Positions 1-62,083 of a stretch of 64,000 nt of DNA are shown piece by piece (the first letter of the stretch is position 1; each line of letters starts with the position of its first letter). The DNA is from Escherichia phage ECML-134, in sequence record JX128259. One strand, 5' to 3'. A program made the translations under genes and the position numbers. Below the pieces are notes generated by a model. It made no database searches, was not told the origin of the DNA, and saw only the letters and a list, made by a program, of their open reading frames with translations.

Positions 1-305
1 CTGTCCATTGGATTTTTTATAAAAAAGTAAAATACGAACGATGATATAGGAAGACTAATGATATACCACAGAAGAACCTTCTTATCTGTGAACCAATCAG
101 CATTCGTTAACTTAGCGCGACCATTTTGAATACACACGAATTTATCATCTGTTACAGTAAATGGCTTAGTTACTTGATATCCCATTCTAAACTCCCTAAT
201 TAATCGTTTCTTTGTATCTTCGGAACAACCATTCCAGTCAACTCTATCAACTGAAATGCCATCATCCCCATCATCTAAATCATACCAGCGAGTTTTTAAA
301 ATCAT
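1..305 (-). CDS. hypothetical protein, N-terminal part only (ORF runs off the window start)
   Basis: ATG at 303-305 (minus) overlapping stop of 302..664; open frame to position 1 (about 101 codons, no stop). Confidence 0.4.
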   Translation of the reverse strand, partial: MILKTRWYDLDDGDDGISVDRVDWNGCSEDTKKRLIREFRMGYQVTKPFTVTDDKFVCIQNGRAKLTNADWFTDKKVLLWYIISLPISSFVFYFFIKNPMD

Positions 306-664
306 TTAATTTTCCTGCAATCACTCACAAACTCTTTCATTGCTTCATTTTCAATATAAGAAATGTAGCTATTATATTCTTTTAATTGTATTTTGTAATC
401 CTTTTTTCTTTGCCAATTTATTTTAAAATTATCATAATGAAAATATAAAATGATACCAAAGAATGAAAACAATGAAATAATTTTAGTATAACAAAGCTCA
501 CTCCAAACTTCTATTATATCTACTGTACCACTGATTTTTAAAATAAAACAGTCAATTAATAGTCCAATAAGACTACCTGTAAGAGCTGCAGCCAACGCCA
601 CAGCAAAAATTAAAAATGACTCAGGAAGCGAATATTTGACTTTATTTAGTTTTGGCTTTTGCAT
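302..664 (-). CDS. small membrane protein (paralog of 646..1059)
   Basis: 120 aa ORF; hydrophobic helices; C-terminal W-x-K...EY...MKEFV...CRK region shared with neighbour. Confidence 0.6.
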   Translation of the reverse strand: MQKPKLNKVKYSLPESFLIFAVALAAALTGSLIGLLIDCFILKISGTVDIIEVWSELCYTKIISLFSFFGIILYFHYDNFKINWQRKKDYKIQLKEYNSYISYIENEAMKEFVSDCRKIK

Positions 665-1059
665 CGTGATTCCTTAACAAATTTCATAATTTCATTAAAT
701 TCATACTCAGCAAGTTTAATCTGGTGTTCCTTTTTAATGTTTTTGCACTGTGCTTTCCAATCACGTACGCGTTTACGATAATGTCTTCCTTGATACCAGT
801 ATCCTACCCAATTTACGGGTACTAATAAAAGTGGAACTATTAATGGAAGAATTAGCATTAACACAAGTATTTCGCCAGAATCAATATCAGTCATAACATC
901 TAAAACACCTCCAATAATCAATAGAATTACAAATGATATGAGTATAACAGGACCTATTAACACATCAGTAGAAATTATCTGACGCTTTAATTCATACTTC
1001 AACGGTTTACTTGGAAGGTATAGTGATGGTTTTGACATATTCTCTACATTCCTTAACAA
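646..1059 (-). CDS. small membrane protein (paralog of 302..664)
   Basis: 137 aa ORF; two hydrophobic segments; C-terminal region similar to 302..664. Confidence 0.6.
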   Translation of the reverse strand: MLRNVENMSKPSLYLPSKPLKYELKRQIISTDVLIGPVILISFVILLIIGGVLDVMTDIDSGEILVLMLILPLIVPLLLVPVNWVGYWYQGRHYRKRVRDWKAQCKNIKKEHQIKLAEYEFNEIMKFVKESRCKSQN

Positions 1060-1615
1060 ATTTTTCTAGTAATAAATCACTTTCAAAATTAGGATTTTCC
1101 ACTAATTTATCAAAAAGATCATCAACAATAGTTAAGATATTCTTTTTACTAAGAATACGTTTATTTTCATGCTTCGTTTCAGAATCAACTATAAGAGTAA
1201 AGAAATATTTCTTTCCCTGAAATTTTACAGTAGTATCAATATAAAATAAATTTGACTTTTGTAAATTACGTTTAAACCATGCGTCACTTAAACTATAAAC
1301 ACCGAGATAATCAAAATCGTCGTTTAAATAACAAACTGTCCATTCAGGAGAAATGAAATCAGTAAATTCAACATCAAAATCGCATGTCAATGAATAAATT
1401 GATTCAATACTGTTAATAAGTATTCCAGGACGTATTAAAGACTTTTTACCTCTGGAAAATCTTCCAGAAAGACTTTCATCAGTTTCATATGAAGAACCCC
1501 AATAATAATTACGTCCTTCTGCCATACGTTTAAGAGCATTTAGCAATTGGTCTGGAACATCAACCTGTCTTTGGAACTCTTCAAACATTGAATTGAAATC
1601 ACTTTGCATTTTCAT
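1007..1615 (-). CDS. hypothetical protein
   Basis: 202 aa ORF, no recognisable motif. Confidence 0.55.
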   Translation of the reverse strand: MKMQSDFNSMFEEFQRQVDVPDQLLNALKRMAEGRNYYWGSSYETDESLSGRFSRGKKSLIRPGILINSIESIYSLTCDFDVEFTDFISPEWTVCYLNDDFDYLGVYSLSDAWFKRNLQKSNLFYIDTTVKFQGKKYFFTLIVDSETKHENKRILSKKNILTIVDDLFDKLVENPNFESDLLLEKFVKECREYVKTITIPSK

Positions 1616-1631
1616 TCCTATTTACTCCAAG

Positions 1632-1650
1632 TAATAGGGGCCGAAGCCCC
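1632..1650 (-). terminator. C(UUCG)G-type stable hairpin between genes (weak terminator or RNA stabiliser)
   Basis: minus-strand GGGGC-UUCG-GCCCC directly after stop of 1657..2250; no U-run. Confidence 0.35.
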
Positions 1651-1656
1651 TTATCA

Positions 1657-2250
1657 TTATTTCAGAGAATTAATGTATTCCTGAACATCGGCAGAGGTAG
1701 TTTCAACCCCAGAAATATTACCATTAAAGGTTTCAACTCGAGCAAGAGTATCTTCAATATCAACCTTAGTCAGCGCTGCAATTTCAACTACATCATCGGC
1801 AGTACTAATTCCAAGGGCATTCGCTGCACGAGTTTCACGGATATATTCCAATTTAACTGCAAGTTCTTGGCGAGCATCATCTAACTCAACTACTTTCTTA
1901 GCGATTTCAATTCGCATTTCAGCATAACCATCAGCTTTAGTAGTCAGCTGTTCAGCTGTTCGACGATATAGCAAACCGAGTTTAGCATGCATTGTTACAT
2001 CTTGACCTTCGGAAAGAAGCTTGCGAATTTCACGCTCTTTTGATTCAGCCTGTTTATTCTTTTCAACAATAAGTTCACGAATACGTTTTTCTTCATTAAT
2101 AGATTTAACAGAAGCAGTTTTTAGGTCTTTAATTTTATCAAGCAGTTTTGCTGCTGCGACAGTATACTGTTCTTCAACAGATAGATTTTTAGCCATAGCA
2201 GAACCAAGTTTAGTGCGAATAAACTCAACAATTTTCTTCAGTGTGTTCAT
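1657..2250 (-). CDS. PspA/IM30-like coiled-coil protein (tentative)
   Basis: 197 aa; helical, charged heptad-rich sequence; segments resemble remembered E. coli PspA. Confidence 0.5.
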
Positions 2251-2327
2251 AGTATTTCCTTAGGTTGATTAAGATTTAAAATCCGTGAGAGTATTAGTAT
2301 TATACTCTATCTTCAAGTTATGGGCTC

Positions 2328-2357
2328 ATAATATCTCAATCATGAGCCCGTGTAAAC
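2328..2357 (-). promoter_or_regulatory. sigma70-type early promoter (GTTTACA-17-TATTAT) with spacer inside a palindrome
   Basis: minus-strand -35 at 2351-2357, -10 at 2328-2333; palindrome GGGCTCAT/ATGAGCCC 2322-2349. Confidence 0.5.
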
Positions 2358-2621
2358 TTATTTCATATTATTGAAATATTCTTCTACGATTTCATCGTTA
2401 TCATGGTAAACTTTAGAAGACAGTTTAACATAACCTTCAGCAGTGAACATGTTAATCACAACCTTTACAGTATACCACTGACCGTCTTCATTACCCATTA
2501 CTGCATAGGTTTCAAACATCGGATGGTCAGGACCGATAACTTTAATATCATTCACTGTACGACCAAAATCTTCTGAAACACATTTCATAAAGAAGTTGAA
2601 CAGTTCGCCGTAATTATCCAT
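2358..2621 (-). CDS. hypothetical protein
   Basis: 87 aa from internal ATG preceded by GGAG; track ORF 2358..2675 has an upstream extension. Confidence 0.55.
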   Translation of the reverse strand: MDNYGELFNFFMKCVSEDFGRTVNDIKVIGPDHPMFETYAVMGNEDGQWYTVKVVINMFTAEGYVKLSSKVYHDNDEIVEEYFNNMK

Positions 2622-2665
2622 TTCGTTCTCCAAGTTGTTTTTCTGTATCAGTAGTTGATAGTTGT

Positions 2666-2695
2666 ATAGTACCATGGAAGAACAGGGATGTAAAC
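2666..2695 (-). promoter_or_regulatory. sigma70-type early promoter (GTTTACA-17-TACTAT)
   Basis: minus-strand -35 at 2689-2695, -10 at 2666-2671, upstream of 2358..2621. Confidence 0.5.
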
Positions 2696-2861
2696 AGTTT
2701 TGTGAAAAAATTTTTAAAAAGTTTTGGGGAATTCTAGGGCGGGGAGGGGCAATTAAAGGATAGGATAATATATTATAAAGGGTATAAACTAAATGATGCC
2801 TAGAGAGGTCCAGAAAGGCCTAGATACCAAAAAGCCCTATCATTTAGATAGGGATTTAAAA

Positions 2862-3425
2862 TTATTTACCTAGTTTAGTTATTATAGCTTCTGCAGCAGC
2901 TTTTAGCTTAGATGCAGTGTTAATACGATTTTTAATTTCAGTATACGCATCGCCAAGAACATCAAGGCTATCAGAATAAACACTTACACTATTGCGTTCG
3001 CTATTTGAAATAGAACCTTTAGTTTTACGATCAAAATCGGTGTACACGTCTTGAAGATCGCGGGCTGCCTTCTTTGCATCATCCAATGCATCAAGAGCTT
3101 TATTCAAAGCATTGACATATTTTTTAGTGTCAAACATATTCTTAGAAATTTTAACAGGTACACGTTCAGGAGTAGCTAATGCAGATTTAGGAACCTGAGC
3201 GCCAGATGCCAATTTCTTAGAAATTTTGAAAAATGCTTTATTAAAACTATTTTCTTGGCTCATCGTAAAAGAACTGTTATCGATGTTATACATTTCAATA
3301 GCTTTAGCTTTCCACTTAAGAAAATCGCCGCGGTCTTTTGGGTCCAAGTGGAAGAATACTTTAGTAAGATCTGCTTCAGATGGTAATTTTGCTGCTTCGG
3401 TTAAAAATTCTGCATAGGTTTTCAT
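2862..3425 (-). CDS. internal head protein with capsid targeting sequence (IPIII-like)
   Basis: 187 aa; N-terminus MKTYAEFLTEA matches the T4 internal-protein CTS ending in a gp21 cleavage site (L-x-E). Confidence 0.7.
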   Translation of the reverse strand: MKTYAEFLTEAAKLPSEADLTKVFFHLDPKDRGDFLKWKAKAIEMYNIDNSSFTMSQENSFNKAFFKISKKLASGAQVPKSALATPERVPVKISKNMFDTKKYVNALNKALDALDDAKKAARDLQDVYTDFDRKTKGSISNSERNSVSVYSDSLDVLGDAYTEIKNRINTASKLKAAAEAIITKLGK

Positions 3426-3515
3426 TTAAAATCCTTGAAATAATCTATCGGTTGGTTATTAATTATTTATTACTTTGTTATTATCCGTAACAGCGTTATC
3501 CGAGTGATTCAAACT

Positions 3516-3542
3516 AAAAAGCCCCAACCTTTCGGCTGGGGC
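3516..3542 (-). terminator. intrinsic terminator
   Basis: minus-strand GC-rich hairpin (GCCCCAGCCGAAAGGTTGGGGC) followed by UUUUU; downstream of 3551..4024. Confidence 0.65.
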
Positions 3543-3550
3543 TAAGAATG

Positions 3551-4024
3551 TTATTTGATTTGTTTAGCAGACCAAATGCGGTCTTTAATAATTTTTTGGA
3601 TGTCTTCAACATACTCAAGAGAGTGAGCATGTGGGTTATCTTTGAAACTATAAGCACGAGCTAGCTTTTGACCTTCGGTTTTGATTACTAAAAGCTCTTT
3701 AAGGATAGCTTCATATTTAGCGATAATTCCTTTAACGATATTTTTTTCTTGTGCAGCTTTAGGATCTGCTTTAGGAGCAGGTTTACCCGAAGCCTTTGCA
3801 AAAGCAGCGCCAGTAGCAACTAGACTTTTCCAGGCCATACTAACCGCATTTCCTGTAAATCCTTCTGCTTTCATGTCACGAGCAAATTGGAATCGCGATT
3901 CGTCAGAAGCATCTTTATAAGAATATTTACCCGCTGCAATGGCTGCTTTTGCGACAGCTTGAATTTCGGTGCTAGATGCTTCATTTAACACCGCTTCATT
4001 TAAAAATTGAGTATATGATTTCAT
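3551..4024 (-). CDS. internal head protein with capsid targeting sequence
   Basis: 157 aa; N-terminus MKSYTQFLNEA (CTS-like). Confidence 0.65.
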   Translation of the reverse strand: MKSYTQFLNEAVLNEASSTEIQAVAKAAIAAGKYSYKDASDESRFQFARDMKAEGFTGNAVSMAWKSLVATGAAFAKASGKPAPKADPKAAQEKNIVKGIIAKYEAILKELLVIKTEGQKLARAYSFKDNPHAHSLEYVEDIQKIIKDRIWSAKQIK

Positions 4025-4064
4025 CTTATTTCCTGTTTTAATTCGTGGATTTAATATACTACTA

Positions 4065-4072
4065 TATTTATA
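4065..4072 (-). promoter_or_regulatory. T4-type late promoter core (TATAAATA)
   Basis: plus TATTTATA = minus TATAAATA, about 40 nt upstream of the ATG at 4024. Confidence 0.5.
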
Positions 4073-4074
4073 CC

Positions 4075-4101
4075 AAAAAGCCCCAACCTTTCGGTCGGGG
4101 C
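4075..4101 (-). terminator. intrinsic terminator ending the tRNA/stable-RNA transcription unit
   Basis: near-identical copy of the 3516..3542 hairpin plus U-run, minus strand. Confidence 0.65.
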
Positions 4102-4104
4102 TAA

Positions 4105-4418
4105 GCCTTGCGGCAACCTTGTCGGGGTTCCACCTGCTAAGGCAAGTGTTTGTACGAAACGCCGGGATTCGAACCCGGTTATTAAGTAGTTGACGCTACT
4201 CAATATTTTTAAAAGGCCATATCTCGACCATATCCGAACGTTCCGTCAAAAACGCTACTCGGCTTATGGCAAAGATATTTCCTCGAATCGATAATTCGGT
4301 GCGCCGTTTCTGCTGTGATATAAGGGGGCATTAACAAAACATAAAGATTTATTAATGCCAGTCCTTAAACAGGGAACATCAGTCCGACGACTTGCCGGTA
4401 GCGACCCGGCTTCTTGTC
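4105..4418 (-). ncRNA. putative stable small RNA(s) with tRNA-like T-arm (species 1/2-like)
   Basis: no ORF; sits between tRNA-Arg and the terminator; T-arm-like CCGGG-TTCGAAT-CCCGG (plus 4162-4178); repeated GAGTAGCGT motif; no canonical cloverleaf. Confidence 0.35.
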
Positions 4419-4494
4419 TGGTCGAGGCAGTAGGGATCGAACCTACGACCCAGGACTTAGAAGGTCCTTGCTCTTCCTTCTGAGCTATGCCTCG
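4419..4494 (-). tRNA. tRNA-Arg (anticodon TCT)
   Basis: manual cloverleaf: acceptor CGAGGCA/TGCCTCG, loop CTTCTAA, T-loop TTCGATC, encoded CCA. Confidence 0.8.
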
Positions 4495-4498
4495 TATT

Positions 4499-4573
4499 TG
4501 GCGGACGTGATAGGATTCGAACCTATAACCAATCGCTTAACAGGCGATCGCTCTGCCATTGAGCTACACATCC
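4499..4573 (-). tRNA. tRNA-Asn (anticodon GTT)
   Basis: manual cloverleaf: acceptor GGATGTG/CACGTCC (one G-U), loop CTGTTAA, T-loop TTCGAAT, CCA. Confidence 0.75.
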
Positions 4574-4577
4574 AAAT

Positions 4578-4664
4578 TGGTGGGGAGTGGTGGAGTCGAA
4601 CCACCCGAGTCGCAATGACAATGGATTTACAGTCCACACCGCTACCTCTACGGGATAACTCCCC
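4578..4664 (-). tRNA. tRNA-Tyr (anticodon GTA), long variable arm
   Basis: manual cloverleaf: acceptor GGGGAGT/ACTCCCC, loop CTGTAAA, long variable arm, CCA. Confidence 0.7.
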
Positions 4665-4673
4665 AAATTAATT

Positions 4674-4748
4674 TGGTGGCCCTGGGTGGAATTGAACCAC
4701 CATCTGGCGATTATGAGTCGCTTGCTTGAACCTTCCAGCTACAGGGCC
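4674..4748 (-). tRNA. tRNA with CAT anticodon (Ile2-type or Met)
   Basis: manual cloverleaf: acceptor GGCCCTG/CAGGGCC, loop CTCATAA, CCA. Confidence 0.75.
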
Positions 4749-4749
4749 T

Positions 4750-4825
4750 TGGTGCTGATTGACGGAATCGAACCGCCGACCTTCTCATTACAAGTGAGTT
4801 GCTCTACCTACTGAGCTAAATCAGC
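4750..4825 (-). tRNA. tRNA-Thr (anticodon TGT)
   Basis: manual cloverleaf: acceptor GCTGATT/AATCAGC, loop CTTGTAA, T-loop TTCGATT, CCA. Confidence 0.8.
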
Positions 4826-4830
4826 AAAAC

Positions 4831-4920
4831 TGGCGGAGGCGATAGGATTTGAACCTATGAGTCGCCGGAGCGACTTCCGGTTTTCAAGACCGGTGCATTA
4901 AACCACTCTGCCACGCCTCC
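4831..4920 (-). tRNA. tRNA-Ser (anticodon TGA), long variable arm
   Basis: manual cloverleaf: acceptor GGAGGCG/CGCCTCC, loop CTTGAAA, long variable arm, CCA. Confidence 0.8.
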
Positions 4921-4926
4921 AAATAT

Positions 4927-5577
4927 TTATATATTGTTAATTTGATTTAGAATTCTTTTTGCTTGAGTATGACTTACGCCAATATGCTTAGCATATTTAG
5001 ATAATTCACCACGTTTAGAAAAATCATATAATTTAGAAATTTCTATTCTTCTTTTTCTTTCATCCGCAGAAACTTTTGCTTCGTTTGCTTTTGCTATTTT
5101 ACGTTTAGCTTCTTGAGAATGAGTTTTACCAGCAAAGCCATTCTTCATTAATCCATTTGAAGACCATCCTTTTAATTTTCCGTTAGAATGTGCCTTTTTA
5201 ACACCCAATGAAATTAATTCGCGTTGCTGGTCTGTCATAGGATAATTATTTATATGATCCCATCCACCTTCACCGCCAAGTTTTAAATTATACACATCTG
5301 GTCTATTTAAAAACTCTTCTGTAACAATATTTTTCTCGGCTTTAAGCATAGATTCTTTATCATCAAAATACTCTAATATTTCTTTAGAAAAATTTTCTAT
5401 GCCATACTTATCTTGGGCTCTTTTTAATAATTTACCAGAACCCATATATCCATCATCTAAATTTTCGGTAGAATGCACACCAATATAAATTTTATTATTA
5501 ATTTTATTTGTTATTTTATAAAGATAAAAATGCATATCAGTCCCTAATAAAGAACTGAGCGTCTCACGACGAGTCAT
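4927..5577 (-). CDS. segB: GIY-YIG homing endonuclease (SegB-like) inside the tRNA cluster
   Basis: 216 aa; N-terminal GIY-YIG module (YLYKITNKINNKIYIGVHS, NxxxGG); position between tRNA sub-clusters. Confidence 0.8.
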   Translation of the reverse strand: MTRRETLSSLLGTDMHFYLYKITNKINNKIYIGVHSTENLDDGYMGSGKLLKRAQDKYGIENFSKEILEYFDDKESMLKAEKNIVTEEFLNRPDVYNLKLGGEGGWDHINNYPMTDQQRELISLGVKKAHSNGKLKGWSSNGLMKNGFAGKTHSQEAKRKIAKANEAKVSADERKRRIEISKLYDFSKRGELSKYAKHIGVSHTQAKRILNQINNI

Positions 5578-5581
5578 AAAT

Positions 5582-5655
<74 letters not shown>

Positions 5656-5660
5656 AAATT

Positions 5661-5747
5661 TGGTGCGAGAAGTGGGACTCGAACCCACAAGGAAATCATT
5701 CCGCAGCATTTTAAGTGCTGTGCCTTTACCAATTTGACCATTCTCGC
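5661..5747 (-). tRNA. tRNA-Leu (anticodon TAA), long variable arm
   Basis: manual cloverleaf: acceptor GCGAGAA/TTCTCGC, loop CTTAAAA, long variable arm, CCA. Confidence 0.8.
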
Positions 5748-5748
5748 G

Positions 5749-5821
5749 CTGGGAATAAAGGACTCGAACCTTTGCATCCTGGAATCAAAATCCAGTGCCT
5801 TACCAACTTGGCTAATTCCCA
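5749..5821 (-). tRNA. tRNA-Gln (anticodon TTG), CCA not encoded
   Basis: manual cloverleaf: acceptor TGGGAAT/ATTCCCA, loop TTTTGAT; 3' end abuts tRNA-Leu. Confidence 0.75.
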
Positions 5822-5918
5822 ATTATTAACAAAGGCTCTCTAACAAGAACCCTTGATGATAGAGGGTATTAATCAGTGCGGTATGAGTTAATAATAACAA
5901 ATAATTCTTAAAGCATAT

Positions 5919-6206
5919 TTACCATTTATGATAATACGTATTTACGATACATTCAAGACTTAAAGGATTCTTGAAAATATCATATTCAAGAGGACCTTTT
6001 TCTGTTTCAATAAAGAAATCAAAATTTACTGTATTAAATTTACGGTCTTCCTTCACTAATTTAACCTGAGAAGATGAACGGTCAATGTAAACCTTTTCAA
6101 CTTCAAAACATGTTAAAATGCCATAATCATCAATCAAGGCTTTAGCTGCTTCTTGATCATATTTATATCCATTTTCAACGGATGATACTTTCGCATAAAG
6201 AATCAT
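5919..6206 (-). CDS. hypothetical protein
   Basis: 95 aa ORF. Confidence 0.5.
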   Translation of the reverse strand: MILYAKVSSVENGYKYDQEAAKALIDDYGILTCFEVEKVYIDRSSSQVKLVKEDRKFNTVNFDFFIETEKGPLEYDIFKNPLSLECIVNTYYHKW

Positions 6207-6208
6207 TA

Positions 6209-6592
6209 TCAGCCTTCATCAACAATAGTATGAGTATGGGCATTTACGATTTGCCACCAATCAAAGCGATTAGAACCATACATCGGTTTGTTTTCATTTT
6301 CTTTGATAATATCACGGAGTTCATCTTCGGTAGCGGCTTTCGCGATTAAATCAGCATATCCACCACGAGGATAATAATTATCACCTGCAAAAAGTAAAAA
6401 ATTTGGTGTAATATTATTGAACTCTTCAAGAGTAATAACTGTTCCTGATGGTAGTTGAACAATCTCTACATAGTTATATCCTAATTTTTGAGCAGCATCT
6501 ACTGCTTCAAGCAGAGTATCATGAGCCCGTCCTATTTGGCAATTTGGCTTTTTAGATGGATTAGCCTGATAATCCGCGTACACTTTATACAT
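6209..6592 (-). CDS. hypothetical protein
   Basis: 127 aa from ATG preceded by AAGGTG; track ORF 6209..6631 has an upstream extension. Confidence 0.55.
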   Translation of the reverse strand: MYKVYADYQANPSKKPNCQIGRAHDTLLEAVDAAQKLGYNYVEIVQLPSGTVITLEEFNNITPNFLLFAGDNYYPRGGYADLIAKAATEDELRDIIKENENKPMYGSNRFDWWQIVNAHTHTIVDEG

Positions 6593-6593
6593 T

Positions 6594-6779
6594 CTATTCA
6601 CCTTTAGAAATTTTATCCATAGCAATAGCAATTAAACCAATTAAAAATGCTACTACAAGTGAAAACACATTTTCTGCTGTAGTTAATAATCCGCATATAA
6701 ATCCAACAAACATTGAAAAACTAAAAGCGGAAGCAGAAATTGCAATAGCAACATTTCGAATTAATTCACAGCGTTTCAT
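6594..6779 (-). CDS. small hydrophobic membrane protein
   Basis: 61 aa, two hydrophobic helices. Confidence 0.5.
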   Translation of the reverse strand: MKRCELIRNVAIAISASAFSFSMFVGFICGLLTTAENVFSLVVAFLIGLIAIAMDKISKGE

Positions 6780-6807
6780 TTTATTCTCCTCAGTAGTTGA
6801 TAGGGTA

Positions 6808-6837
6808 ATAGTATCACTACCCTATCTAAAAGTAAAC
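6808..6837 (-). promoter_or_regulatory. early promoter embedded in palindrome GATAGGGTA...TACCCTATC
   Basis: minus-strand -35 GTTTAC(T) at 6831-6837, -10 TACTAT at 6808-6813; palindrome arms 6799-6807 and 6818-6826. Confidence 0.5.
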
Positions 6838-7071
6838 TTATTTTTTACGAAAAATTGATTTATTTTCTGCTGCCCATTTTTCAATAACTGCAGCAGGACC
6901 AGTAACAACAATTTTATCACCGTAATCTTCTGCAGCGAGTTGACCGAAATTATCTAATGCATCACGAAGAACTCCATGAGGCATTTCGCCCATTTTATCT
7001 TTCTTGCCAATGTAAATAAACTCAACTTTTACATCAGCAGCTTCAGCAATAAATTCTTGATACGTTTTCAT
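6838..7071 (-). CDS. internal head protein with capsid targeting sequence (IPI-locus type)
   Basis: 77 aa from MKTYQEFIAEA (canonical CTS); GGAG upstream; track ORF starts 6 codons earlier. Confidence 0.7.
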   Translation of the reverse strand: MKTYQEFIAEAADVKVEFIYIGKKDKMGEMPHGVLRDALDNFGQLAAEDYGDKIVVTGPAAVIEKWAAENKSIFRKK

Positions 7072-7107
7072 TTTATTCTCCAATTTCACATTTGTTTTGA
7101 TAGGGTA

Positions 7108-7137
7108 ATAGTATCACTACTAAAACCCCGTGTAAAC
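7108..7137 (-). promoter_or_regulatory. early promoter (GTTTACA-17-TACTAT), half-palindrome copy
   Basis: minus-strand -35 at 7131-7137, -10 at 7108-7113; shares the core TAATAGTATCACTA. Confidence 0.55.
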
Positions 7138-7156
7138 AACTTTGTGAAATTGTTTA

Positions 7157-7447
7157 TTACAAAAGATTTTTAGCAATAATCTTGAGATGTGCTGCAGAAA
7201 TGTGTTTAGCTTTAAACAACGCAGTTTCTTCGGCAGGAGAGATAACGATTGTAGCACCATCCTTTTTAGCAGACCACCCATCACCTAGGTAAACAGTACC
7301 TTTGATTTCTTCGCCATCAACCAGACTAATCATTGGTTTACCTTCTCGTCCTTTATTTGCTTTAATAACTTCAGAAGTAAGAGTAGCTTCGGTAATGGTA
7401 GAAACCGGGGTAGTTGTAGTAGAAGTAAATTCTTTAAATGTTTTCAT
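7157..7447 (-). CDS. internal head protein with capsid targeting sequence
   Basis: 96 aa; N-terminus MKTFKEF... (CTS-like). Confidence 0.65.
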   Translation of the reverse strand: MKTFKEFTSTTTTPVSTITEATLTSEVIKANKGREGKPMISLVDGEEIKGTVYLGDGWSAKKDGATIVISPAEETALFKAKHISAAHLKIIAKNLL

Positions 7448-7478
7448 TTTTATTTTCCTAATTAATTTTGATGAGGTA

Positions 7479-7508
7479 ATAGTATCACTACCTCATCAGT
7501 ATGTAAAC
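7479..7508 (-). promoter_or_regulatory. early promoter embedded in palindrome GATGAGGTA...TACCTCATC
   Basis: minus-strand -35 GTTTACA at 7502-7508, -10 TACTAT at 7479-7484; palindrome arms 7470-7478 and 7489-7497. Confidence 0.55.
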
Positions 7509-7520
7509 AACTTTGTGAAA

Positions 7521-8217
<697 letters not shown>

Positions 8218-16069: not shown

Positions 16070-19000
16070 CAGTAAAAGCACCTTCAGTCACTAGTCTCAG
16101 AATTTCCAAGTTATCCGCAAATCAGGTGCAAGTACGCTGGGATGACGTTGGTGCTAATTTCTACTATTTTGTAGAAATCGCTGAGACAAAAACAAACTCG
16201 GGGGAAAAACTCCCGAGTAATCAATATCGTTGGATTAATTTAGGATATACAGCAAATAATAGTTTCTTTTTTGATGATGCTGATCCATTAACAACATACA
16301 TTATTAGAGTAGCCACAGCTGCGCAAGATTTTGAGCAGTCTGATTGGATTTATACCGAAGAGTTTGAAACTTTTGCTACAAATGCTTATACATTTCAAAA
16401 CATGATTGAAATGCAATTAGCCAATAAATTCATTCAGGAAAAATTTACTCTTAATAATTCTGATTATGTTAATTTTAATAATGATACTATAATGGCTGCA
16501 TTGATGAATGAATCATTCCAATTCAGCCCATCGTATGTTGATGTTTCATCAATAAGTAATTTTATTATTGGTGAAAATGAGTATCATGAAATACAAGGTT
16601 CTATTCAGCAAGTATGTAAGGATATTAATCGAGTTTATTTGATGGAATCAGAAGGAATTCTATATCTTTTTGAGCGCTATCAACCTGTAGTTAAAGTATC
16701 CAATGATAAAGGACAAACCTGGAAAGCTGTAAAGCTCTTCAATGACCGTGTAGGATATCCTTTATCTAAGACAGTATATTACCAATCTGCGAACACAACA
16801 TACGTTCTAGGATACGACAAGATTTTCTATGGCCGCAAATCTACTGATGTTAGATGGTCAGCCGATGATGTCAGATTTAGTTCTCAGGATATAACATTTG
16901 CTAAACTTGGCGACCAATTACATCTAGGATTTGATGTAGAAATTTTTGCCACTTACGCGACTTTACCAGCGAATGTATACCGCATTGCAGAAGCTATTAC
17001 TTGCACCGATGATTACATTTACGTTGTCGCCAGAGACAAAGTTAGATACATAAAAACGAGTAATGCACCTATAGATTCTGATCCATTATCTCCAACATAT
17101 TCGGAAAGACTTTTTGAACCTGATACCATGACTATAACCGGAAATCCTAAAGCAGTATGCTATAAAATGGATTCTATCGGTGATAAAGTTTTTGCTCTTA
17201 TTATTGGTGAAGTTGAAACATTAAATGCTAATCCTAGAACATCAAAAATAATTGATTCCGCTGATAAAGGAATATATGTTTTAAATCATGACGAAAAAAC
17301 ATGGAAAAGAGTTTTTGGTAATACCGAAGAAGAAAGAAGACGTATTCAACCCGGATATGCGAATATGTCAACTGACGGTAAATTAGTTTCTCTGTCTTCG
17401 AGCAATTTTAAATTTTTAAGTGATAATGTTGTTAATGACCCTGAAACTGCAGCAAAATATCAGTTAATTGGTGCTGTCAAATATGAATTTCCTCGTGAAT
17501 GGTTAGCTGATAAGCATTATCATATGATGGCATTTATAGCGGATGAAAAATCTGATTGGGAAACTTTTACGCCTCAGCCAATGAAATACTACGCAGAACC
17601 GTTCTTTAACTGGTCTAAAAAATCTAACACACGTTGTTGGATAAACAACTCTGATAGAGCTGTAGTAGTTTATGCTGATTTAAAATACACTAAAGTTATA
17701 GAAAATATTCCGGAAACATCACCAGATAGATTAGTTCATGAATACTGGGATGATGGTGATTGCACTATAGTAATGCCAAATGTCAAATTCACTGGATTTA
17801 AAAAATATGCATCTGGGATGCTTTTCTATAAAGCCTCCGGTGAAATAATTTCTTACTATGATTTTAACTATCGTGTGAGAGATACAGTAGAAATTATTTG
17901 GAAGCCAACTGAAGTATTTTTAAAAGCATTTTTACAAAACCAAGAGCATGAGACTCCTTGGTCACCAGAAGAAGAGCGTGGATTAGCTGACCCCGATTTA
18001 AGGCCATTAATTGGCACAATGATGCCTGATTCTTATTTGTTACAGGATTCGAATTTTGAGGCATTTTGCGAAGCATATATTCAATATCTTTCTGATGGAT
18101 ATGGAACTCAGTATAACAATTTACGAAATTTAATTCGTAATCAGTATCCTAGAGAAGAGCATGCATGGGAATATTTGTGGTCAGAGATATATAAAAGAAA
18201 CATTTATTTAAATGCTGATAAACGCGATGCTGTTGCGAGATTCTTTGAATCACGTAGCTATGATTTTTATTCTACTAAAGGAATTGAAGCATCATACAAG
18301 TTTCTTTTTAAAGTTCTTTATAATGAAGAAGTTGAAATTGAAATTGAATCTGGGGCTGGTACTGAATATGATATAATCGTTCAATCTGATTCTTTGACTG
18401 AAGACTTAGTAGGACAAACGATTTATACGGCAACAGGAAGATGTAATGTTACTTATATAGAAAGAAGCTATTCTAATGGTAAATTGCAATGGACCGTAAC
18501 TATTCATAATCTTTTGGGACGATTAATTGCTGGTCAAGAAGTTAAAGCAGAAAGACTTCCTAGTTTTGAAGGCGAAATTATTCGTGGGGTTAAAGGAAAG
18601 GATTTGCTTCAAAACAATATAGACTATATTAATAGAAGTAGATCATACTATGTAATGAAAATTAAATCCAATTTACCTTCTTCCCGCTGGAAATCTGACG
18701 TTATTCGTTTTGTTCATCCAGTAGGATTTGGATTTATAGCAATTACTCTTTTAACAATGTTTATTAATGTTGGTTTAACTCTTAAACATACAGAGACTAT
18801 AATTAATAAATACAAAAACTATAAATGGGATTCTGGATTGCCTACTGAATATGCCGACAGAATAGCTAAATTAACTCCAACCGGTGAAATTGAGCATGAT
18901 TCAGTAACAGGCGAAGCAATTTATGAGCCTGGCCCAATGGCTGGTGTAAAATATCCTCTTCCTGATGACTATAATGCTGAAAATAATAATTCAATATTTC

Positions 19001-36641: not shown

Positions 36642-37066
36642 TGCTTCTGATCCCTGAAACTCATGAATTAGTTCTCGAGAATGTCGAAGCACTTATTCCT
36701 GAAGCACAGGGTCGCTTTGACGAATTGTCTTCTGCTTTAGATAAAGACGATATAAATACAATTGTCGAGAATATGCTTGATGATGAAACTGATTTAGCAG
36801 TTGCATTAGCTTCTATTAATGAAAATATGCCGTTAAATGAATTCATTGTTAAGCACGTTTCAGCTCGTGGTGAAATTACACGTACTAAAGACCGCAAGAC
36901 GCGTGAACGTAATGCATTTCAAACCACCGGGCTGTCTAAAGCAAAACGTAGACAAATTGCTCGCAAAGCTACCAAAACGAAGATTGCCAATCCAGCAGGT
37001 CAATCTCGTGCTCAGCGTAAGCGTAAAAAAGCTCTTAAACGCCGTAAAGCATTAGGATTAAGCTAA
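36641..37066 (+). CDS. 68: gp68 prohead core protein
   Basis: 141 aa; T4 order. Confidence 0.8.
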
Positions 37067-37704
37067 TGAATGAACCCCAATTACTAATTGAAACTTGGGG
37101 TCAACCTGGCGAAATTATTGATGGTGTGCCAATGCTTGAATCCCACGATGGAAAAGACCTAGGCTTAAAACCTGGTTTATACATCGAAGGAATATTCATG
37201 CAAGCAGAAGTCGTCAATAGAAATAAACGTCTTTATCCAAAACGCATATTAGAAAAAGCGGTAAAAGACTATATTAATGAGCAAGTTTTAACTAAACAAG
37301 CTCTCGGAGAATTAAATCATCCTCCACGCGCTAATGTTGACCCGATGCAAGCCGCTATCATTATAGAAGATATGTGGTGGAAAGGAAATGACGTATACGG
37401 ACGAGCTCGTGTTATTGAAGGTGACCATGGTCCTGGAGATAAATTAGCAGCTAATATTCGTGCCGGATGGATTCCAGGAGTTTCTTCTCGTGGATTAGGT
37501 TCATTGACTGACACAAATAAAGGTTATCGTATCGTAAACGAAGGATTCAAATTAACTGTAGGTGTTGATGCAGTATGGGGTCCAAGTGCTCCAGATGCAT
37601 GGGTAACTCCTAAGGAAATTACCGAATCACAGACGGCGGAAGCCGATACAAGTGCCGATGACGCCTATATGGCTCTCGCAGAGGCCATGAAAAAAGCGTT
37701 ATAA
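37066..37704 (+). CDS. 21: gp21 prohead core protease
   Basis: 212 aa; T4 order and size. Confidence 0.85.
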   Translation: MNEPQLLIETWGQPGEIIDGVPMLESHDGKDLGLKPGLYIEGIFMQAEVVNRNKRLYPKRILEKAVKDYINEQVLTKQALGELNHPPRANVDPMQAAIIIEDMWWKGNDVYGRARVIEGDHGPGDKLAANIRAGWIPGVSSRGLGSLTDTNKGYRIVNEGFKLTVGVDAVWGPSAPDAWVTPKEITESQTAEADTSADDAYMALAEAMKKAL

Positions 37705-37734: not shown

Positions 37735-38544
37735 ATGCTTAAAGAACAACTGATTGCCGAAGCGCAAAAAATTGATGCTTCCGTTGCTCTTGATAGTATT
37801 TTCGAATCAGTTAATATTTCTCCGGAAGCAAAAGAAACTTTCGGCACTGTATTCGAAGCTACCGTCAAGCAGCACGCCGTTAAATTAGCTGAATCTCATA
37901 TCGCTAAAATTGCTGAAAAAGCAGAAGAAGAAGTAGAAAAAAATAAAGAAGAAGCCGAAGAAAAAGCCGAGAAGAAAATCGCTGAGCAAGCTTCTAAATT
38001 CATTGACCATCTTGCGAAAGAATGGCTCGCTGAAAATAAATTAGCAGTTGATAAAGGCATCAAAGCCGAACTGTTTGAATCCATGCTTGGTGGATTAAAA
38101 GAGCTCTTTGTTGAACACAACGTTGTTGTTCCAGAAGAATCAGTTGATGTTGTAGCTGAAATGGAAGAAGAGCTGCAAGAACATAAAGAAGAATCAGCTC
38201 GTCTGTTCGAAGAACTCAATATGCGCGACGCATATATCAATTATGTGCAGCGTGAAGTGGCATTGAGCGAAAGTACTAAAGATCTGACTGAGTCTCAAAA
38301 AGAAAAAGTCTCTGCTCTGGTCGAAGGTATGGATTATTCAGATGCATTCTCAAGTAAATTGAGTGCCATCGTAGAAATGGTGAAGAAGTCTAATAAAGAT
38401 GAAAGCACTATTACTGAGGGTATAAATACTCCTGATACTGAAGCAGCCGGACTGAATTTCGTCACTGAAGCTGTAGAAGATAAAGCTGCACCTGGTGCAG
38501 AAGATATTGTAAGTGTATATGCGAAAGTCGCATCTCGTTTCTAA
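37735..38544 (+). CDS. 22: gp22 prohead core scaffold protein
   Basis: 269 aa helical E/K-rich protein; T4 order. Confidence 0.85.
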   Translation: MLKEQLIAEAQKIDASVALDSIFESVNISPEAKETFGTVFEATVKQHAVKLAESHIAKIAEKAEEEVEKNKEEAEEKAEKKIAEQASKFIDHLAKEWLAENKLAVDKGIKAELFESMLGGLKELFVEHNVVVPEESVDVVAEMEEELQEHKEESARLFEELNMRDAYINYVQREVALSESTKDLTESQKEKVSALVEGMDYSDAFSSKLSAIVEMVKKSNKDESTITEGINTPDTEAAGLNFVTEAVEDKAAPGAEDIVSVYAKVASRF

Positions 38545-60768: not shown

Positions 60769-61622
60769 TAGAATGCTCCTTGGAAAATATTATCACCACT
60801 ACCACTAGTAAGTCTATTAAAATACCCTGCATCACCAGGCTTAATATAACTCCATGTATGGAATGGATGCATCTGATGTGAGTGCGTATAATATGGATGA
60901 TATGGATTATAAGGATTAAATCCAGGAGTTCTCCAGGTAGTGTTCCAACGAAAAGAATCGTTTTTAATCATCTTTTCAATTACATCTTTTATAGCTTTTT
61001 CACTATCAAAACTTTCTTTATTTTCCTTTGGTGGAAAAAGCTTATTCTCTACATCATTCCATGTATAAACTCGCTGAGCGGTTTTTGGAATACTGTCACG
61101 CTCCCCTCGAGCCATCCAATAAACAGGAACATTTAATATTTCACTTGCATGATCGCAGTGGTGAGCGAGATCGTCAATATAACAAATTACGTTATATTTC
61201 TCTTTTGCCTTTTTGAACAACTCTTCTTTTGAAGAATCATGACCACACATCAATACTTCTGAGAAGGCACCAGGAAAAAGAGCATTCAAATTAAATTGAC
61301 GATTCAGCAGAGCGTCAATAGAATCACCCAATGCTGTAACAGCTACAAAATTATAATCTTCTTTTAATTTGTTAATTACACACAGGGCATCTTTATATGG
61401 AGACAAGTAACGAATAAAATCTGAACGATTGTATTTTTCAATTAACTTGACGCCAAGTTCTTCATCACAATTAAAGAGTTTACCAGGAGAAATAAATTTC
61501 TCATCTTGGATCATTTTTAAAATATGTTCTAACGGAAGATTATATTTCTGAGCAAAATAAGGAAGGCCTGATTGCCAGCTTAAACATACTCCATCAATAT
61601 CAGTCAAAATAGTAGGCTTCAT
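60768..61622 (-). CDS. HAD-superfamily hydrolase-like protein (30.2-like) with His/Pro/Tyr-rich C-terminal tail
   Basis: 284 aa; HAD motif I ILTDIDGV near the N-terminus; tail NPYNPYHPYYTHSHQMHPFHTW. Confidence 0.6.
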   Translation of the reverse strand: MKPTILTDIDGVCLSWQSGLPYFAQKYNLPLEHILKMIQDEKFISPGKLFNCDEELGVKLIEKYNRSDFIRYLSPYKDALCVINKLKEDYNFVAVTALGDSIDALLNRQFNLNALFPGAFSEVLMCGHDSSKEELFKKAKEKYNVICYIDDLAHHCDHASEILNVPVYWMARGERDSIPKTAQRVYTWNDVENKLFPPKENKESFDSEKAIKDVIEKMIKNDSFRWNTTWRTPGFNPYNPYHPYYTHSHQMHPFHTWSYIKPGDAGYFNRLTSGSGDNIFQGAF

Positions 61623-62083
61623 AGAGAGTCTCTTAATAGGTTTAACACATCAATAAATTCAGCTTCGGTTAGTATTGTATCATCTTTTGTTAGACCACTA
61701 GCCATGCTGTGCTTCAAAACTTTTCCTTTTGAGGCTTGTAAGGCATCACGAAACCCCTTGTTTTGAATCGCTGCTTCAAAATATGCATTTGTATACAACT
61801 CTTTCCACGCTGGGGAGTATCTTGAAAATGGAACTCCCAGCCAGAAGAGGGTCCCACGGTCCTGAGCTCTTGCATAAGACCTTCCAGCTTGTTGGGCGGC
61901 AAGCCCGGATAACCCAAATATACGTCTTTGCTGCTCAACATTTTTCACCTTGCATCCTTGGAGGAATCCTTCGAGACCTCCAAATTGGATACCATCCATA
62001 ACAAAAGGCCATTGGGCGAAATTACTTAATGCGCATGATGGCCATCTAAAATTGCTTCTAATCTCTAACTCAGACATTTTCAA
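61619..62083 (-). CDS. NADAR-domain-like protein (30.3-like)
   Basis: 154 aa; LSNFAQWPFVMDGIQF...EGFLQ resembles remembered YbiA/NADAR core. Confidence 0.5.
   Translation of the reverse strand: MKMSELEIRSNFRWPSCALSNFAQWPFVMDGIQFGGLEGFLQGCKVKNVEQQRRIFGLSGLAAQQAGRSYARAQDRGTLFWLGVPFSRYSPAWKELYTNAYFEAAIQNKGFRDALQASKGKVLKHSMASGLTKDDTILTEAEFIDVLNLLRDSL

What the first reader, a model, noticed from the sequence alone, without database searches (positions are those of the whole stretch)
2862..7447. Four CTS-bearing internal-protein genes flank the tRNA cluster, with no lysozyme-e block between them
Four ORFs (2862..3425, 3551..4024, 6838..7071, 7157..7447) begin with MK[TS][YF]x[EQ]F[ILT]xE-type N-termini, the capsid targeting sequence that directs T4 internal proteins into the head for injection. 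Their bodies are unrelated to each other, as expected for diversifying injected effectors such as anti-restriction proteins. Unlike the T4 order I recall, no e-lysozyme/nudE block lies between the IPIII-like gene and the tRNAs.
Basis: partly seen in the sequence, partly recalled or inferred. Interest (0 to 1): 0.5.

Follow-up and report, generated by a model that had tools for sequence, protein, structure and literature searches.

The report
T4-type injected internal-protein genes
The four genes are real internal head-protein genes of a T4-like coliphage: two are already characterised anti-restriction proteins, two are unannotated members of the same kind, and the supposedly missing lysozyme block simply lies just off the left edge of the window.

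Summary
Observation confirmed. Interpretation partly right. All four ORFs are on the minus strand. They are the only ORFs in 64 kb that start with MK[TS][YF]x[EQ]F (4 found, 0.015 expected by chance).

- **7157-7447** is T4 IPI (99% identical), the GmrSD inhibitor.
- **6838-7071** is Ip6. It is 97% identical to Bas37_0260, recently shown to inhibit McrBC.
- **2862-3425 and 3551-4024** are annotated "hypothetical" in all listed GenBank records (163 and 510 matches). Each carries the capsid targeting residues (Y4, F7, L8, E10-Ala) and a basic, lysine-rich body.

The last two form a 1.2 kb two-cassette insertion, relative to T4, between e.8 and rnaC/tRNA-Arg. Each gene ends in a copy of one hairpin terminator, and 3551-4024 follows a perfect late promoter, TATAAATA. 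Their C-terminal halves are probably homologous (hhalign 83%), so their bodies are not fully unrelated.

The synteny claim fails. 2862-3425 is not ipIII. Genes e.3-e.8 occupy 302-2675. In relatives, nudE and e lie about 0.2-1.2 kb left of the window start, followed by ipIII where the relative carries it.

This is a known kind of system. The modest novelty is a third, tRNA-adjacent, late-promoter internal-protein site shared by three Tevenvirinae genera.

The parts
7157..7447 (-). ipI: internal protein I precursor, 96 aa. Propeptide 1-20 ends ITE; mature IPI* is residues 21-96.
   Evidence: Pfam PF11634 IPI_T4 E = 7.5e-54. 99% identical to T4 IPI, with one extra Thr. PDB 2JUB chain matches residues 21-96. 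289 phage records.
6838..7071 (-). ip6: 77-aa internal protein with the canonical CTS MKTYQEFIAE. Orthologue of the McrBC inhibitor Bas37_0260.
   Evidence: phrog_8111 'internal virion protein' E = 6e-52. 97.4% identical over 77 aa to Bas37_0260. Annotated ip6/ipVI in fHoEco02, JK08, PST and VR7; 244 records. Absent from T4, where it corresponds to an insertion at about 6818-7065.
3551..4024 (-). Unannotated CTS-bearing gene, 157 aa. The CTS is MKSYTQFLNE followed by a duplicated cleavage motif, VLNE. Orthologue of Bas37_0244 / RB32ORF133c.
   Evidence: phrog_2280 E = 5.5e-60. 510 phage records; every annotated record listed calls it hypothetical. The mature form is 15.4 kDa, pI 9.6, 14% Lys. 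The CTS positions are conserved in relatives down to 24-31% identity. AF2 mean pLDDT 72.9.
2862..3425 (-). Unannotated CTS-bearing gene, 187 aa, CTS MKTYAEFLTE. Orthologue of Bas37_0243 / RB69ORF148c-149c. It is not ipIII.
   Evidence: phrog_2280 E = 1.2e-53. 163 phage records; every annotated record listed calls it hypothetical. The mature form is 19.6 kDa, pI 9.5, 14% Lys. Only residues 1-13 align with T4 IPIII. The C-terminal domain aligns with the 3551-4024 family at 82.8% probability.
4065..4072 (-). Perfect T4 late-promoter consensus TATAAATA, starting 48 nt upstream of the ATG at 4024.
   Evidence: The same hairpin + TATAAATA + CTS-gene arrangement precedes the homologue KP1_122 in Klebsiella phage KP1.
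4079..4102 (-). Hairpin terminator at the end of the rnaC homologue. It is the upstream boundary of the insertion.
   Evidence: Member of repeat family D4. It corresponds to the single hairpin in T4.
3520..3543 (-). Second copy of the same hairpin terminator, downstream of 3551-4024.
   Evidence: (D4, 88% between copies).
2835..2853 (-). Terminator downstream of 2862-3425. Homology to T4 resumes at this point.
7468..7508 (-). Early sigma-70 promoter (TTTACA-17-TACTAT) overlapping a stem-loop, upstream of ipI. This is copy 1 of a repeated cassette.
   Evidence: Repeat families D2/D3. Promoter 7507-7479. Identical to the T4 ipI upstream region.
7097..7137 (-). Copy 2 of the early promoter/stem-loop cassette, upstream of ip6.
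   Evidence: promoter 7136-7108.
6797..6837 (-). Copy 3 of the cassette, upstream of trna.4 (6594-6779).
37066..37704 (+). Gene 21 prohead protease, the enzyme expected to remove the CTS.
   Evidence: Pfam Peptidase_S77 E = 1.5e-111.
37735..38544 (+). Gene 22 scaffolding core protein, the structure to which the CTS targets internal proteins.
   Evidence: Pfam T4_CASP E = 9.5e-90.
302..2675 (-). Context: e.3, e.4, e.5, e.6 and e.8 (e.7 is absent).
   Evidence: 92-99% identity to the T4 proteins. T4 gene order.

Best explanation
The window comes from a Tequatrovirus (T4-like coliphage). The four ORFs are internal head-protein (ip) genes at two accessory sites that flank the tRNA cluster.

Site 1 lies between 57B and trna.4 and is the classical polymorphic ipI locus. 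It holds T4-type ipI plus ip6. Each gene sits behind a copy of a repeated early-promoter/stem-loop cassette.

Site 2 lies between e.8 and rnaC/tRNA-Arg. Relative to T4 it holds a 1.2 kb insertion of two cassettes. Each cassette is one CTS gene followed by a copy of a hairpin terminator. The first gene follows a canonical late promoter.

Mechanism, established for T4 and inferred here:
1. The N-terminal decapeptide (aromatic at position 4, Phe at 7) binds the gp22 scaffolding core, so the protein is built into the prohead.
2. The gp21 protease cuts after the Glu of the (L/I)-x-E motif. That is position 10 in three proteins and position 20 in IPI.
3. The propeptide leaves the head and the mature protein stays with the DNA.
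4. The mature protein is injected with the DNA and is therefore present before any phage gene is expressed.

The injected IPI blocks a GmrSD type IV restriction enzyme, and Ip6 blocks McrBC. The two unannotated proteins most likely act the same way, as injected first-response counter-defence proteins whose targets are unknown.
For: Shown here:
- The motif is specific: 4 observed against 0.015 expected.
- Identity of IPI and of Ip6/Bas37_0260.
- gp20, gp21, gp22 and gp23 are encoded in the same window.
- Insertion boundaries and terminator repeats.
- Late promoter TATAAATA upstream of 3551-4024, with the same hairpin-promoter-gene layout in a Jiaodavirus homologue.
- The same site is occupied in RB69 (Mosigvirus) and KP1 (Jiaodavirus).
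- The mature products of 2862-3425 and 3551-4024 match T4 IPII/IPIII in size, pI (9.5-9.6) and Lys content (14%).
- In the 3551-4024 family, M1 and F7 are invariant, L8 is nearly so, position 4 is always Tyr or Phe, and the Glu that ends the leader is kept, while bodies fall to 24-31% identity.

From the literature:
- The CTS is MKTYQEFIAE and is sufficient to package foreign proteins (PMC8442874).
- Residues 4 and 7 serve targeting; residues 8 and 10 serve processing (PMC9026906).
- Ip1, Ip2 and Ip3 each inhibit a distinct GmrSD (PMC12373910).
- Bas37_0260 inhibits McrBC (bioRxiv 10.1101/2025.11.20.689424).
Against: - There is no direct evidence (virion proteomics, processing, injection) for 2862-3425 or 3551-4024 or their orthologues. 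No paper I could search names them.
- 2862-3425 has only an imperfect late-promoter match, AATAAATA at 3471.
- The structure models are moderate to poor (pLDDT 72.9 and 56.8), and fold searches gave no functional lead.
- Mature Ip6 is near-neutral (pI 6.8), so basic charge is not universal in the class.
- Targets are inferred by analogy only.
Confidence: 0.85

Rival explanations
1. The two tRNA-adjacent proteins are packaged through their CTS but act mainly as structural or physical internal proteins. They would neutralise DNA charge and assist packaging or ejection rather than inhibit a specific host defence.
For: Both are basic (pI 9.5-9.6) and 14% Lys, like the bulk internal proteins. The review PMC3012670 reports that the lysines of internal proteins contact DNA phosphates. 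The 2862-3425 family is 95-99% identical in 161 of 163 records, which does not look like an arms-race target. Both are predicted to be helical domains joined by a disordered Lys/Pro/Ala-rich linker.
Against: T4 IPII and IPIII are just as basic, were long assumed to be structural, and now have specific GmrSD targets (PMC12373910). The genes are absent from T4 and T6 and patchy among relatives: 163 and 510 records against 1098 that carry e.6. That pattern is typical of accessory counter-defence cargo.
Confidence: 0.2
2. The N-terminal similarity of 2862-3425 and 3551-4024 is a by-product of cassette recombination or of a shared translation-initiation region. The proteins are not packaged.
For: The similarity extends to the DNA and includes the ribosome-binding region (repeat family D1). 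T4 gp61.1, which I did not find listed as an internal protein in the papers I read, also starts MKTFKEFIKE. So the motif can occur outside the recognised ip loci.
Against: The decapeptide alone suffices to package foreign proteins (PMC8442874, PMC9026906). The functionally critical positions 4, 7, 8 and 10 are the ones kept across distant family members whose DNA is no longer alignable. A late promoter fits synthesis during prohead assembly.
Confidence: 0.08
3. One reading: the phage has a rearranged gene order in which an IPIII-type gene sits next to the tRNAs and the e-lysozyme/nudE block has been lost or moved.
For: No lysozyme gene lies between 3425 and 4419.
Against: 2862-3425 shares only the CTS with IPIII. 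Genes e.3 to e.8 lie at 302-2675 in T4 order. The window's first 2400 bases are collinear with SCS4 at 97% identity and begin inside the e.2-like ORF. In SCS4, the nudE-like ORF, e (97% identical to T4) and ipIII (92%) follow immediately to the left. Phaginator, Bas37 and T4 likewise have nudE and e immediately to the left. Homology to T4 breaks exactly at one hairpin and resumes at another copy of it, which is the signature of an insertion.
Confidence: 0.03

Closest known systems
T4 internal protein I (IPI / IPI*, Pfam PF11634, PDB 2JUB), inhibitor of the GmrS/GmrD type IV restriction enzyme of E. coli CT596
   Same: 7157-7447 is the orthologue. It is 99% identical, sits at the same locus downstream of 57B, and has the same upstream early promoter/stem-loop. 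The mature part is identical in length to the solved structure.
   Different: One extra Thr in the propeptide, which is 20 rather than 19 residues.
Ip6 / Bas37_0260 of Escherichia phage KarlGJung (BASEL Bas37), a CTS-bearing inhibitor of McrBC (bioRxiv 10.1101/2025.11.20.689424)
   Same: 6838-7071 is 97.4% identical over all 77 residues. It occupies the same position between trna.4 and the first gene of the ipI locus.
   Different: Its upstream neighbour here is T4-type ipI. In Bas37 and T6 the neighbour is a different 85-aa ip gene, phrog_3499 in Bas37.
T4 IPII and IPIII, bulk basic internal proteins that inhibit the GmrSD enzymes of ECOR21 and ECOR17 (PMC12373910)
   Same: 2862-3425 and 3551-4024 share the CTS, the cleavage motif, the size range, the pI and the Lys content.
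   Different: There is no detectable homology beyond the CTS. The genomic site differs: the e.8/rnaC junction rather than the denV-e interval. The regulation also differs. These genes have a late promoter plus hairpin terminators, whereas T4 ipII/ipIII, read by eye, have an early-type promoter/stem-loop and no TATAAATA.
Polymorphic ip loci with conserved flanking early-promoter repeats (Repoila et al. 1994, cited in PMC12373910) and PeSL cassettes (PMC2839356)
   Same: The ipI/ip6 pair is flanked by three copies of a 41-85 nt promoter/stem-loop repeat. This is what those papers propose as the substrate for cassette shuffling.
   Different: The tRNA-adjacent pair is bounded by copies of a hairpin terminator instead (family D4). 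I could not read Repoila 1994, so its description rests on my memory and on what citing papers say.
PHROG 2280 (unknown function)
   Same: Both tRNA-adjacent proteins, and their Klebsiella and Yersinia phage relatives, match it end to end.
   Different: The PHROG carries no functional label. The CTS, the late promoter and the tRNA-adjacent position are not recorded there.

Membership tests
T4-type internal proteins (CTS-bearing, gp21-processed, injected) | N-terminal capsid targeting decapeptide resembling MKTYQEFIAE, with an aromatic residue at position 4 and Phe at position 7 | tested here: met
   All four ORFs: Y/Y/Y/F at position 4 and F at position 7. Criteria from PMC9026906 and PMC8442874.
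T4-type internal proteins (CTS-bearing, gp21-processed, injected) | gp21 cleavage motif (L/I)-x-E, followed by a small residue, at the end of the leader | tested here: met
   LTE-A, LNE-A (plus a second LNE-A at position 15), IAE-A, and ITE-A at position 20. For IPI the predicted mature end equals the start of PDB 2JUB.
T4-type internal proteins (CTS-bearing, gp21-processed, injected) | The phage encodes the gp21 prohead protease and the gp22 scaffolding core | tested here: met
   Peptidase_S77 at 37066-37704 and T4_CASP at 37735-38544.
T4-type internal proteins (CTS-bearing, gp21-processed, injected) | Small, basic, Lys-rich mature protein | tested here: met
   pI 9.0-9.6 and 13-14% Lys for three of the four. 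Ip6 is the exception at pI 6.8.
T4-type internal proteins (CTS-bearing, gp21-processed, injected) | Physically present in the virion in processed form and injected with the DNA | not testable with these tools
   Needs virion mass spectrometry or injection assays. I found no published proteomics for the orthologues of 2862-3425 or 3551-4024.
Classical polymorphic ip loci (ipI locus; ipII/ipIII locus) | Position between 57B and trna.4, or between denV and e, flanked by repeated early-promoter/stem-loop sequences | tested here: met
   Met for 7157-7447 and 6838-7071 only.
Classical polymorphic ip loci (ipI locus; ipII/ipIII locus) | The same feature, applied to 2862-3425 and 3551-4024 | tested here: not met
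   They lie between e.8 and rnaC/tRNA-Arg. They are bounded by terminator repeats, with a late promoter upstream of 3551-4024.
IPI_T4 (PF11634) | Significant match to the family model over the mature domain | tested here: met
   7157-7447: E = 7.5e-54, 180 bits against a cut-off of 25.
IPIII of T4 (phrog_5341) | Sequence homology of the mature region | tested here: not met
   For 2862-3425, BLAST aligns 12 residues (E = 0.14) and hhalign aligns 13 columns at 26% probability. Both fall inside the CTS. The true IPIII orthologue sits off-window in the relative SCS4.
Ip6 / Bas37_0260 McrBC inhibitor | Orthology to the experimentally tested protein | tested here: met
   6838-7071: 97.4% identity over 77 of 77 residues, at the same locus. 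The inhibition activity itself was not tested.

The most novel reading that the evidence does not exclude
The e.8/rnaC-tRNA junction is a third internal-protein locus of the Tevenvirinae. The recent literature I could read counts only two. This locus differs from the classical two in being late-transcribed and bounded by terminator repeats.

It is occupied in Tequatrovirus, Mosigvirus (RB69) and Jiaodavirus (KP1). It encodes a modular family (phrog_2280) built as CTS, small helical N-domain, Lys/Pro/Ala linker, then a helical hairpin. Its members would be injected counter-defence proteins against host systems not yet assigned to any internal protein.
Probability: 0.5. Interest if true: 0.45.

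Novelty: new member of a known kind. Interest (0 to 1): 0.25.

Why it matters
Injected internal proteins are a phage's first line of counter-defence, and each one characterised so far has identified a specific type IV restriction enzyme. Ip1, Ip2, Ip3 and Bas37_0260 now all have assigned targets. That makes any further CTS-bearing gene an obvious candidate inhibitor.

The two tRNA-adjacent genes occur in hundreds of sequenced therapeutic and environmental T4-like phages, and every listed record calls them hypothetical. Labelling them as probable injected proteins would improve annotation. It would also give two ready candidates for host-range and defence-inhibition screens, and Bas37, which already has a transposon library, carries both.

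For the scan itself, the lesson is that the apparent synteny anomaly was a window-edge and orthology error.

Tried and rejected
- **Rfam.** A scan of 2300-7600 found only tRNAs and sub-threshold noise. The rnaC/rnaD homologue at 4070-4418 has no Rfam family.
- **Pfam and NCBIfam.** Pfam gave nothing for three of the four proteins, apart from a sub-threshold cytochrome b562 hit for 2862-3425, which I dismissed as helical-bundle noise. NCBIfam gave nothing.
- **PDB sequence searches.** Nothing except 2JUB for IPI.
- **Structure.** Foldseek of the 3551-4024 model against PDB and BFVD returned only self-family hits and non-significant helical proteins. The 2862-3425 model (pLDDT 56.8) was too poor to search.
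- **Homology of the two bodies.** With shallow alignments hhalign gave only 27.6%, and pairwise BLAST to the Klebsiella and Yersinia relatives was not significant. After the exhaustive profile search added distant members, the C-terminal domains aligned at 82.8%. The N-domains remain unmatched.
- **Literature.** Repoila 1994 is not held. ORF names and leader peptides returned nothing relevant. One search was swamped by inositol-phosphate papers and another by generic proteomics. The primary fHe-Yen9-01 paper is not held. The HIDEN-SEQ main text does not mention bas37_0243 or bas37_0244. The review of T4-related genomes does not discuss internal proteins.
- **Rejected ideas.** I considered and rejected that 2862-3425 is a displaced ipIII, and that the e block is deleted.

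Full report
**1. What the window is**

A megablast of 2300-7600 against 50,697 phage records finds 1046 matching records, nearly all T4-like phages of enterobacteria. The best is Escherichia phage vB_EcoM_SCS4 (Tequatrovirus), at 99.2% identity over the full 5.3 kb. Gene-by-gene comparison with T4 gives this map, all on the minus strand:

| Window coordinates | Gene |
|---|---|
| 302-664 | e.3 |
| 646-1059 | e.4 |
| 1007-1615 | e.5 |
| 1657-2250 | e.6 |
| (absent) | e.7 |
| 2358-2621 | e.8 |
| 2862-3425, 3551-4024 | two extra ORFs |
| 4070-4418 | homologue of the small RNAs rnaC/rnaD |
| 4419-5821 | nine tRNA genes, interrupted by a GIY-YIG endonuclease gene |
| 5919-6779 | trna.2, trna.3, trna.4 |
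| 6838-7071 | one extra ORF |
| 7157-7447 | ipI |
| 7521 onward | 57B, 57A, 1, 3, 2, 4, then 53 and 5 on the plus strand |

**2. The observation**

The four ORFs exist at the coordinates given. Their N-termini are MKTYAEFLTE, MKSYTQFLNE, MKTYQEFIAE and MKTFKEFTST...ITE. The motif MK[TS][YF]x[EQ]F occurs at exactly these four ORF starts in the whole 64 kb. Its core occurs only once more in six frames, and not at a start. Simulated sequences of the same first-order composition give 0.015 occurrences on average. The DNA encoding the leader is itself a four-member repeat family (D1).

**3. Identity of each gene**

- **7157-7447** is IPI: Pfam IPI_T4 E = 7.5e-54 and 99% identity to T4 IPI. The solved IPI* structure 2JUB corresponds to residues 21-96. 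This places the maturation cut after ITE20, as expected for gp21.
- **6838-7071** carries the canonical CTS MKTYQEFIAE (PMC8442874). It belongs to phrog_8111, 'internal virion protein'. Several records annotate it ip6/ipVI, and it is present in T6. It is 97.4% identical to Bas37_0260 of phage KarlGJung. A 2025 preprint showed Bas37_0260 to be a CTS-bearing inhibitor of McrBC (bioRxiv 10.1101/2025.11.20.689424).
- **2862-3425 and 3551-4024** are orthologues of Bas37_0243 (97%) and Bas37_0244 (99%). They occur in 163 and 510 phage records. Every annotated record listed calls them hypothetical, including RB69ORF148c/149c and 'RB32ORF133c'. Both hit phrog_2280, which has no assigned function.

**4. 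Are the last two really internal proteins?**

No direct data exist, so this step is inference. The converging evidence is:

- (a) They keep the residues shown experimentally to matter: positions 4 and 7 for targeting, 8 and 10 for processing (PMC9026906). Ala follows the Glu.
- (b) An exhaustive profile search found relatives of 3551-4024 down to 24-31% identity. Their leaders (MLKFNEFLAE, MINFSDFLNE, MKSFSSFLNE, MKFKEFLAE) keep the same positions while the bodies diverge. M1 and F7 are invariant and L8 is nearly so.
- (c) The predicted mature proteins (19.6 kDa, pI 9.5; 15.4 kDa, pI 9.6; 14% Lys) resemble T4 IPIII (20.4 kDa, pI 9.65) and IPII.
- (d) A perfect T4 late promoter, TATAAATA, starts 48 nt upstream of the ATG of 3551-4024, directly after a hairpin terminator. 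The Klebsiella phage KP1 homologue has the same hairpin, TATAAATA and gene layout.
- (e) The gp21 protease and gp22 scaffold are encoded in the same window.

I put the probability that both are packaged and processed at about 0.75.

**5. Anatomy of the two sites**

Relative to T4, homology stops at window 2853 and resumes at 4070. The two ends map to overlapping T4 coordinates, at the single hairpin that follows rnaC. The intervening 1.2 kb is two units, each a CTS gene followed by a copy of the hairpin. Copies lie at 2820-2859, 3507-3546 and 4066-4105 (D4).

RB69 has only the 2862-3425 unit, again directly after the hairpin. Bas39 has only the 3551-4024 unit. T4 and T6 have neither. The units therefore behave as independent cassettes.

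At the ipI locus, ip6 is a roughly 250-bp insertion relative to T4. Three copies of an early promoter (TTTACA-17-TACTAT) overlapping a stem-loop precede ipI, ip6 and trna.4. This matches what I recall of the conserved flanking repeat of Repoila et al. 1994, which I could not read, and the PeSL cassettes of PMC2839356.

**6. Relationship of the bodies**

Pairwise BLAST finds nothing beyond the leader. With shallow alignments hhalign gave 27.6%. With the enlarged family alignment, the C-terminal halves (2862-3425 residues 96-175; 3551-4024 residues 93-157) align at 82.8% probability, E = 9e-6.

The AF2 models agree on a common layout: a small helical N-domain, a disordered Lys/Pro/Ala linker and a long helical hairpin. 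Confidence is moderate for 3551-4024 (pLDDT 72.9) and low for 2862-3425 (56.8). 'Unrelated bodies' is therefore true for IPI and Ip6 against the rest, but probably not for the tRNA-proximal pair. Neither of that pair resembles IPIII beyond the leader.

**7. The synteny claim**

In T4 the order is tRNAs, rnaD, rnaC, e.8...e.2, nudE, e, ipIII, ipII. In fact e.8 to e.3 lie at 2675-302.

The first 2400 bases of the window are collinear with SCS4 (97% identity) and start inside its e.2-like ORF. In SCS4 the nudE-like ORF ends about 180 bp to the left of that point and e (97% identical to T4) about 660 bp to the left. Next come ipIII (92%) and a further CTS gene in the ipII position. Phaginator and Bas37 likewise have nudE and e immediately to the left, although Bas37 has denV rather than an ip gene beyond e. 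The anomaly is a window-edge and orthology artefact.

The near-identical phage SCS4 thus carries at least six CTS genes at three sites.

**8. Mechanism and function**

Established for T4 (PMC5694885, PMC8442874, PMC9026906): the CTS docks proteins onto the scaffolding core; gp21 removes it after Glu; about 1000 internal-protein molecules stay in the head and are injected.

Established targets: Ip1 inhibits GmrSD of CT596, Ip2 inhibits GmrSD of ECOR21, and Ip3 inhibits GmrSD of ECOR17 (PMC12373910; Srikant et al., PMC9391042). Bas37_0260 inhibits McrBC (bioRxiv 10.1101/2025.11.20.689424).

For this window, IPI and Ip6 inherit those functions by near-identity. For the other two, an injected counter-defence role is the best guess. 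A mainly DNA-associated structural role is the main rival.

**9. Novelty and verdict**

The class, its leader, its polymorphism and its anti-restriction role are all known, and two of the four genes are characterised. What I could not find in annotation or in the accessible literature is recognition of the two tRNA-adjacent genes as CTS proteins. PMC12373910 speaks of two Ip loci. I also found no mention of this site's late-promoter and terminator-repeat organisation, nor of its occupation in Tequatrovirus, Mosigvirus and Jiaodavirus.

I file the finding as new members of a known kind. Interest is low to moderate, at 0.25. One caveat: I could not read Repoila 1994 or Comeau 2007.

Noticed in passing
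window 4419-5821 (minus strand): The tRNA cluster has nine genes: Arg, Asn, Tyr, Met(CAU), Thr, Ser, Gly, Leu, Gln. Compared with T4's eight, it gains Asn and Tyr and lacks Pro. The CAU tRNA sits where T4 annotates tRNA-Ile.
   Followed up: partly
window 4927-5577 (minus strand): A GIY-YIG homing-endonuclease gene lies between tRNA-Ser and tRNA-Gly, whereas T4 segB lies between tRNA-Arg and tRNA-Ile. The first ~110 residues of the SegB-like part are nearly identical to T4 SegB and the C-terminal half is unrelated (55% overall). This suggests a chimeric seg gene at a new insertion point.
   Followed up: partly
window 4070-4418: Homologue of the T4 stable RNAs rnaC and rnaD (species 1 and 2), 90% identical to T4. 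No Rfam family matched it.
   Followed up: partly
window 2251-2357: T4 gene e.7 is absent between e.6 and e.8. Only about 107 nt of spacer remain, containing a promoter/stem-loop related to the ipI-locus cassette (repeat D5, 2320-2357).
   Followed up: no
L011 5967-6131 (T4 gene 61.1); SCS4 record 17110-17274; both off-window: The 54-aa T4 protein gp61.1 starts MKTFKEFIKE-D, a CTS-like leader with the LxE/IxE-type cut motif. I did not see it listed among internal proteins in the papers I read. It could be a further packaged peptide or a coincidental leader.
   Followed up: partly
L013 3001-3563 (RB69, AY303349 73428-73990): The 2862-3425 homologue in RB69 (a Mosigvirus) is 97.6% identical at the protein level and sits at the same e.8/tRNA junction. 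It is annotated as two overlapping ORFs (148c/149c), which suggests a frameshift or sequencing error. The high identity suggests recent horizontal transfer.
   Followed up: partly
L003 3315-3788 (SCS4 61614-62087): In the closest relative, the T4 ipII/denV position is occupied by a different 157-aa CTS gene (phrog_3155, 'internal virion protein'). It has a weak BLAST similarity to T4 IPII (27% over 98 residues, E = 3e-5, small database, alignment includes the leader).
   Followed up: partly
window 3980-4024 (codons 1-15 of 3551-4024): The leader has a tandem duplication of the cleavage motif: FLNE-A, then VLNE-A. Relatives have a single motif and 10-11-residue leaders. The propeptide here may be cut twice, or may be 15 residues long.
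   Followed up: partly
P0023 and P0013 (metagenomic relatives): The C-terminal domain of 2862-3425 also occurs fused to a different N-terminus without a CTS (P0023). The C-terminal 32 residues of 3551-4024 occur fused to a trna.3-like N-terminus (P0013). Both point to domain shuffling, or to assembly chimeras, among these accessory genes.
   Followed up: no
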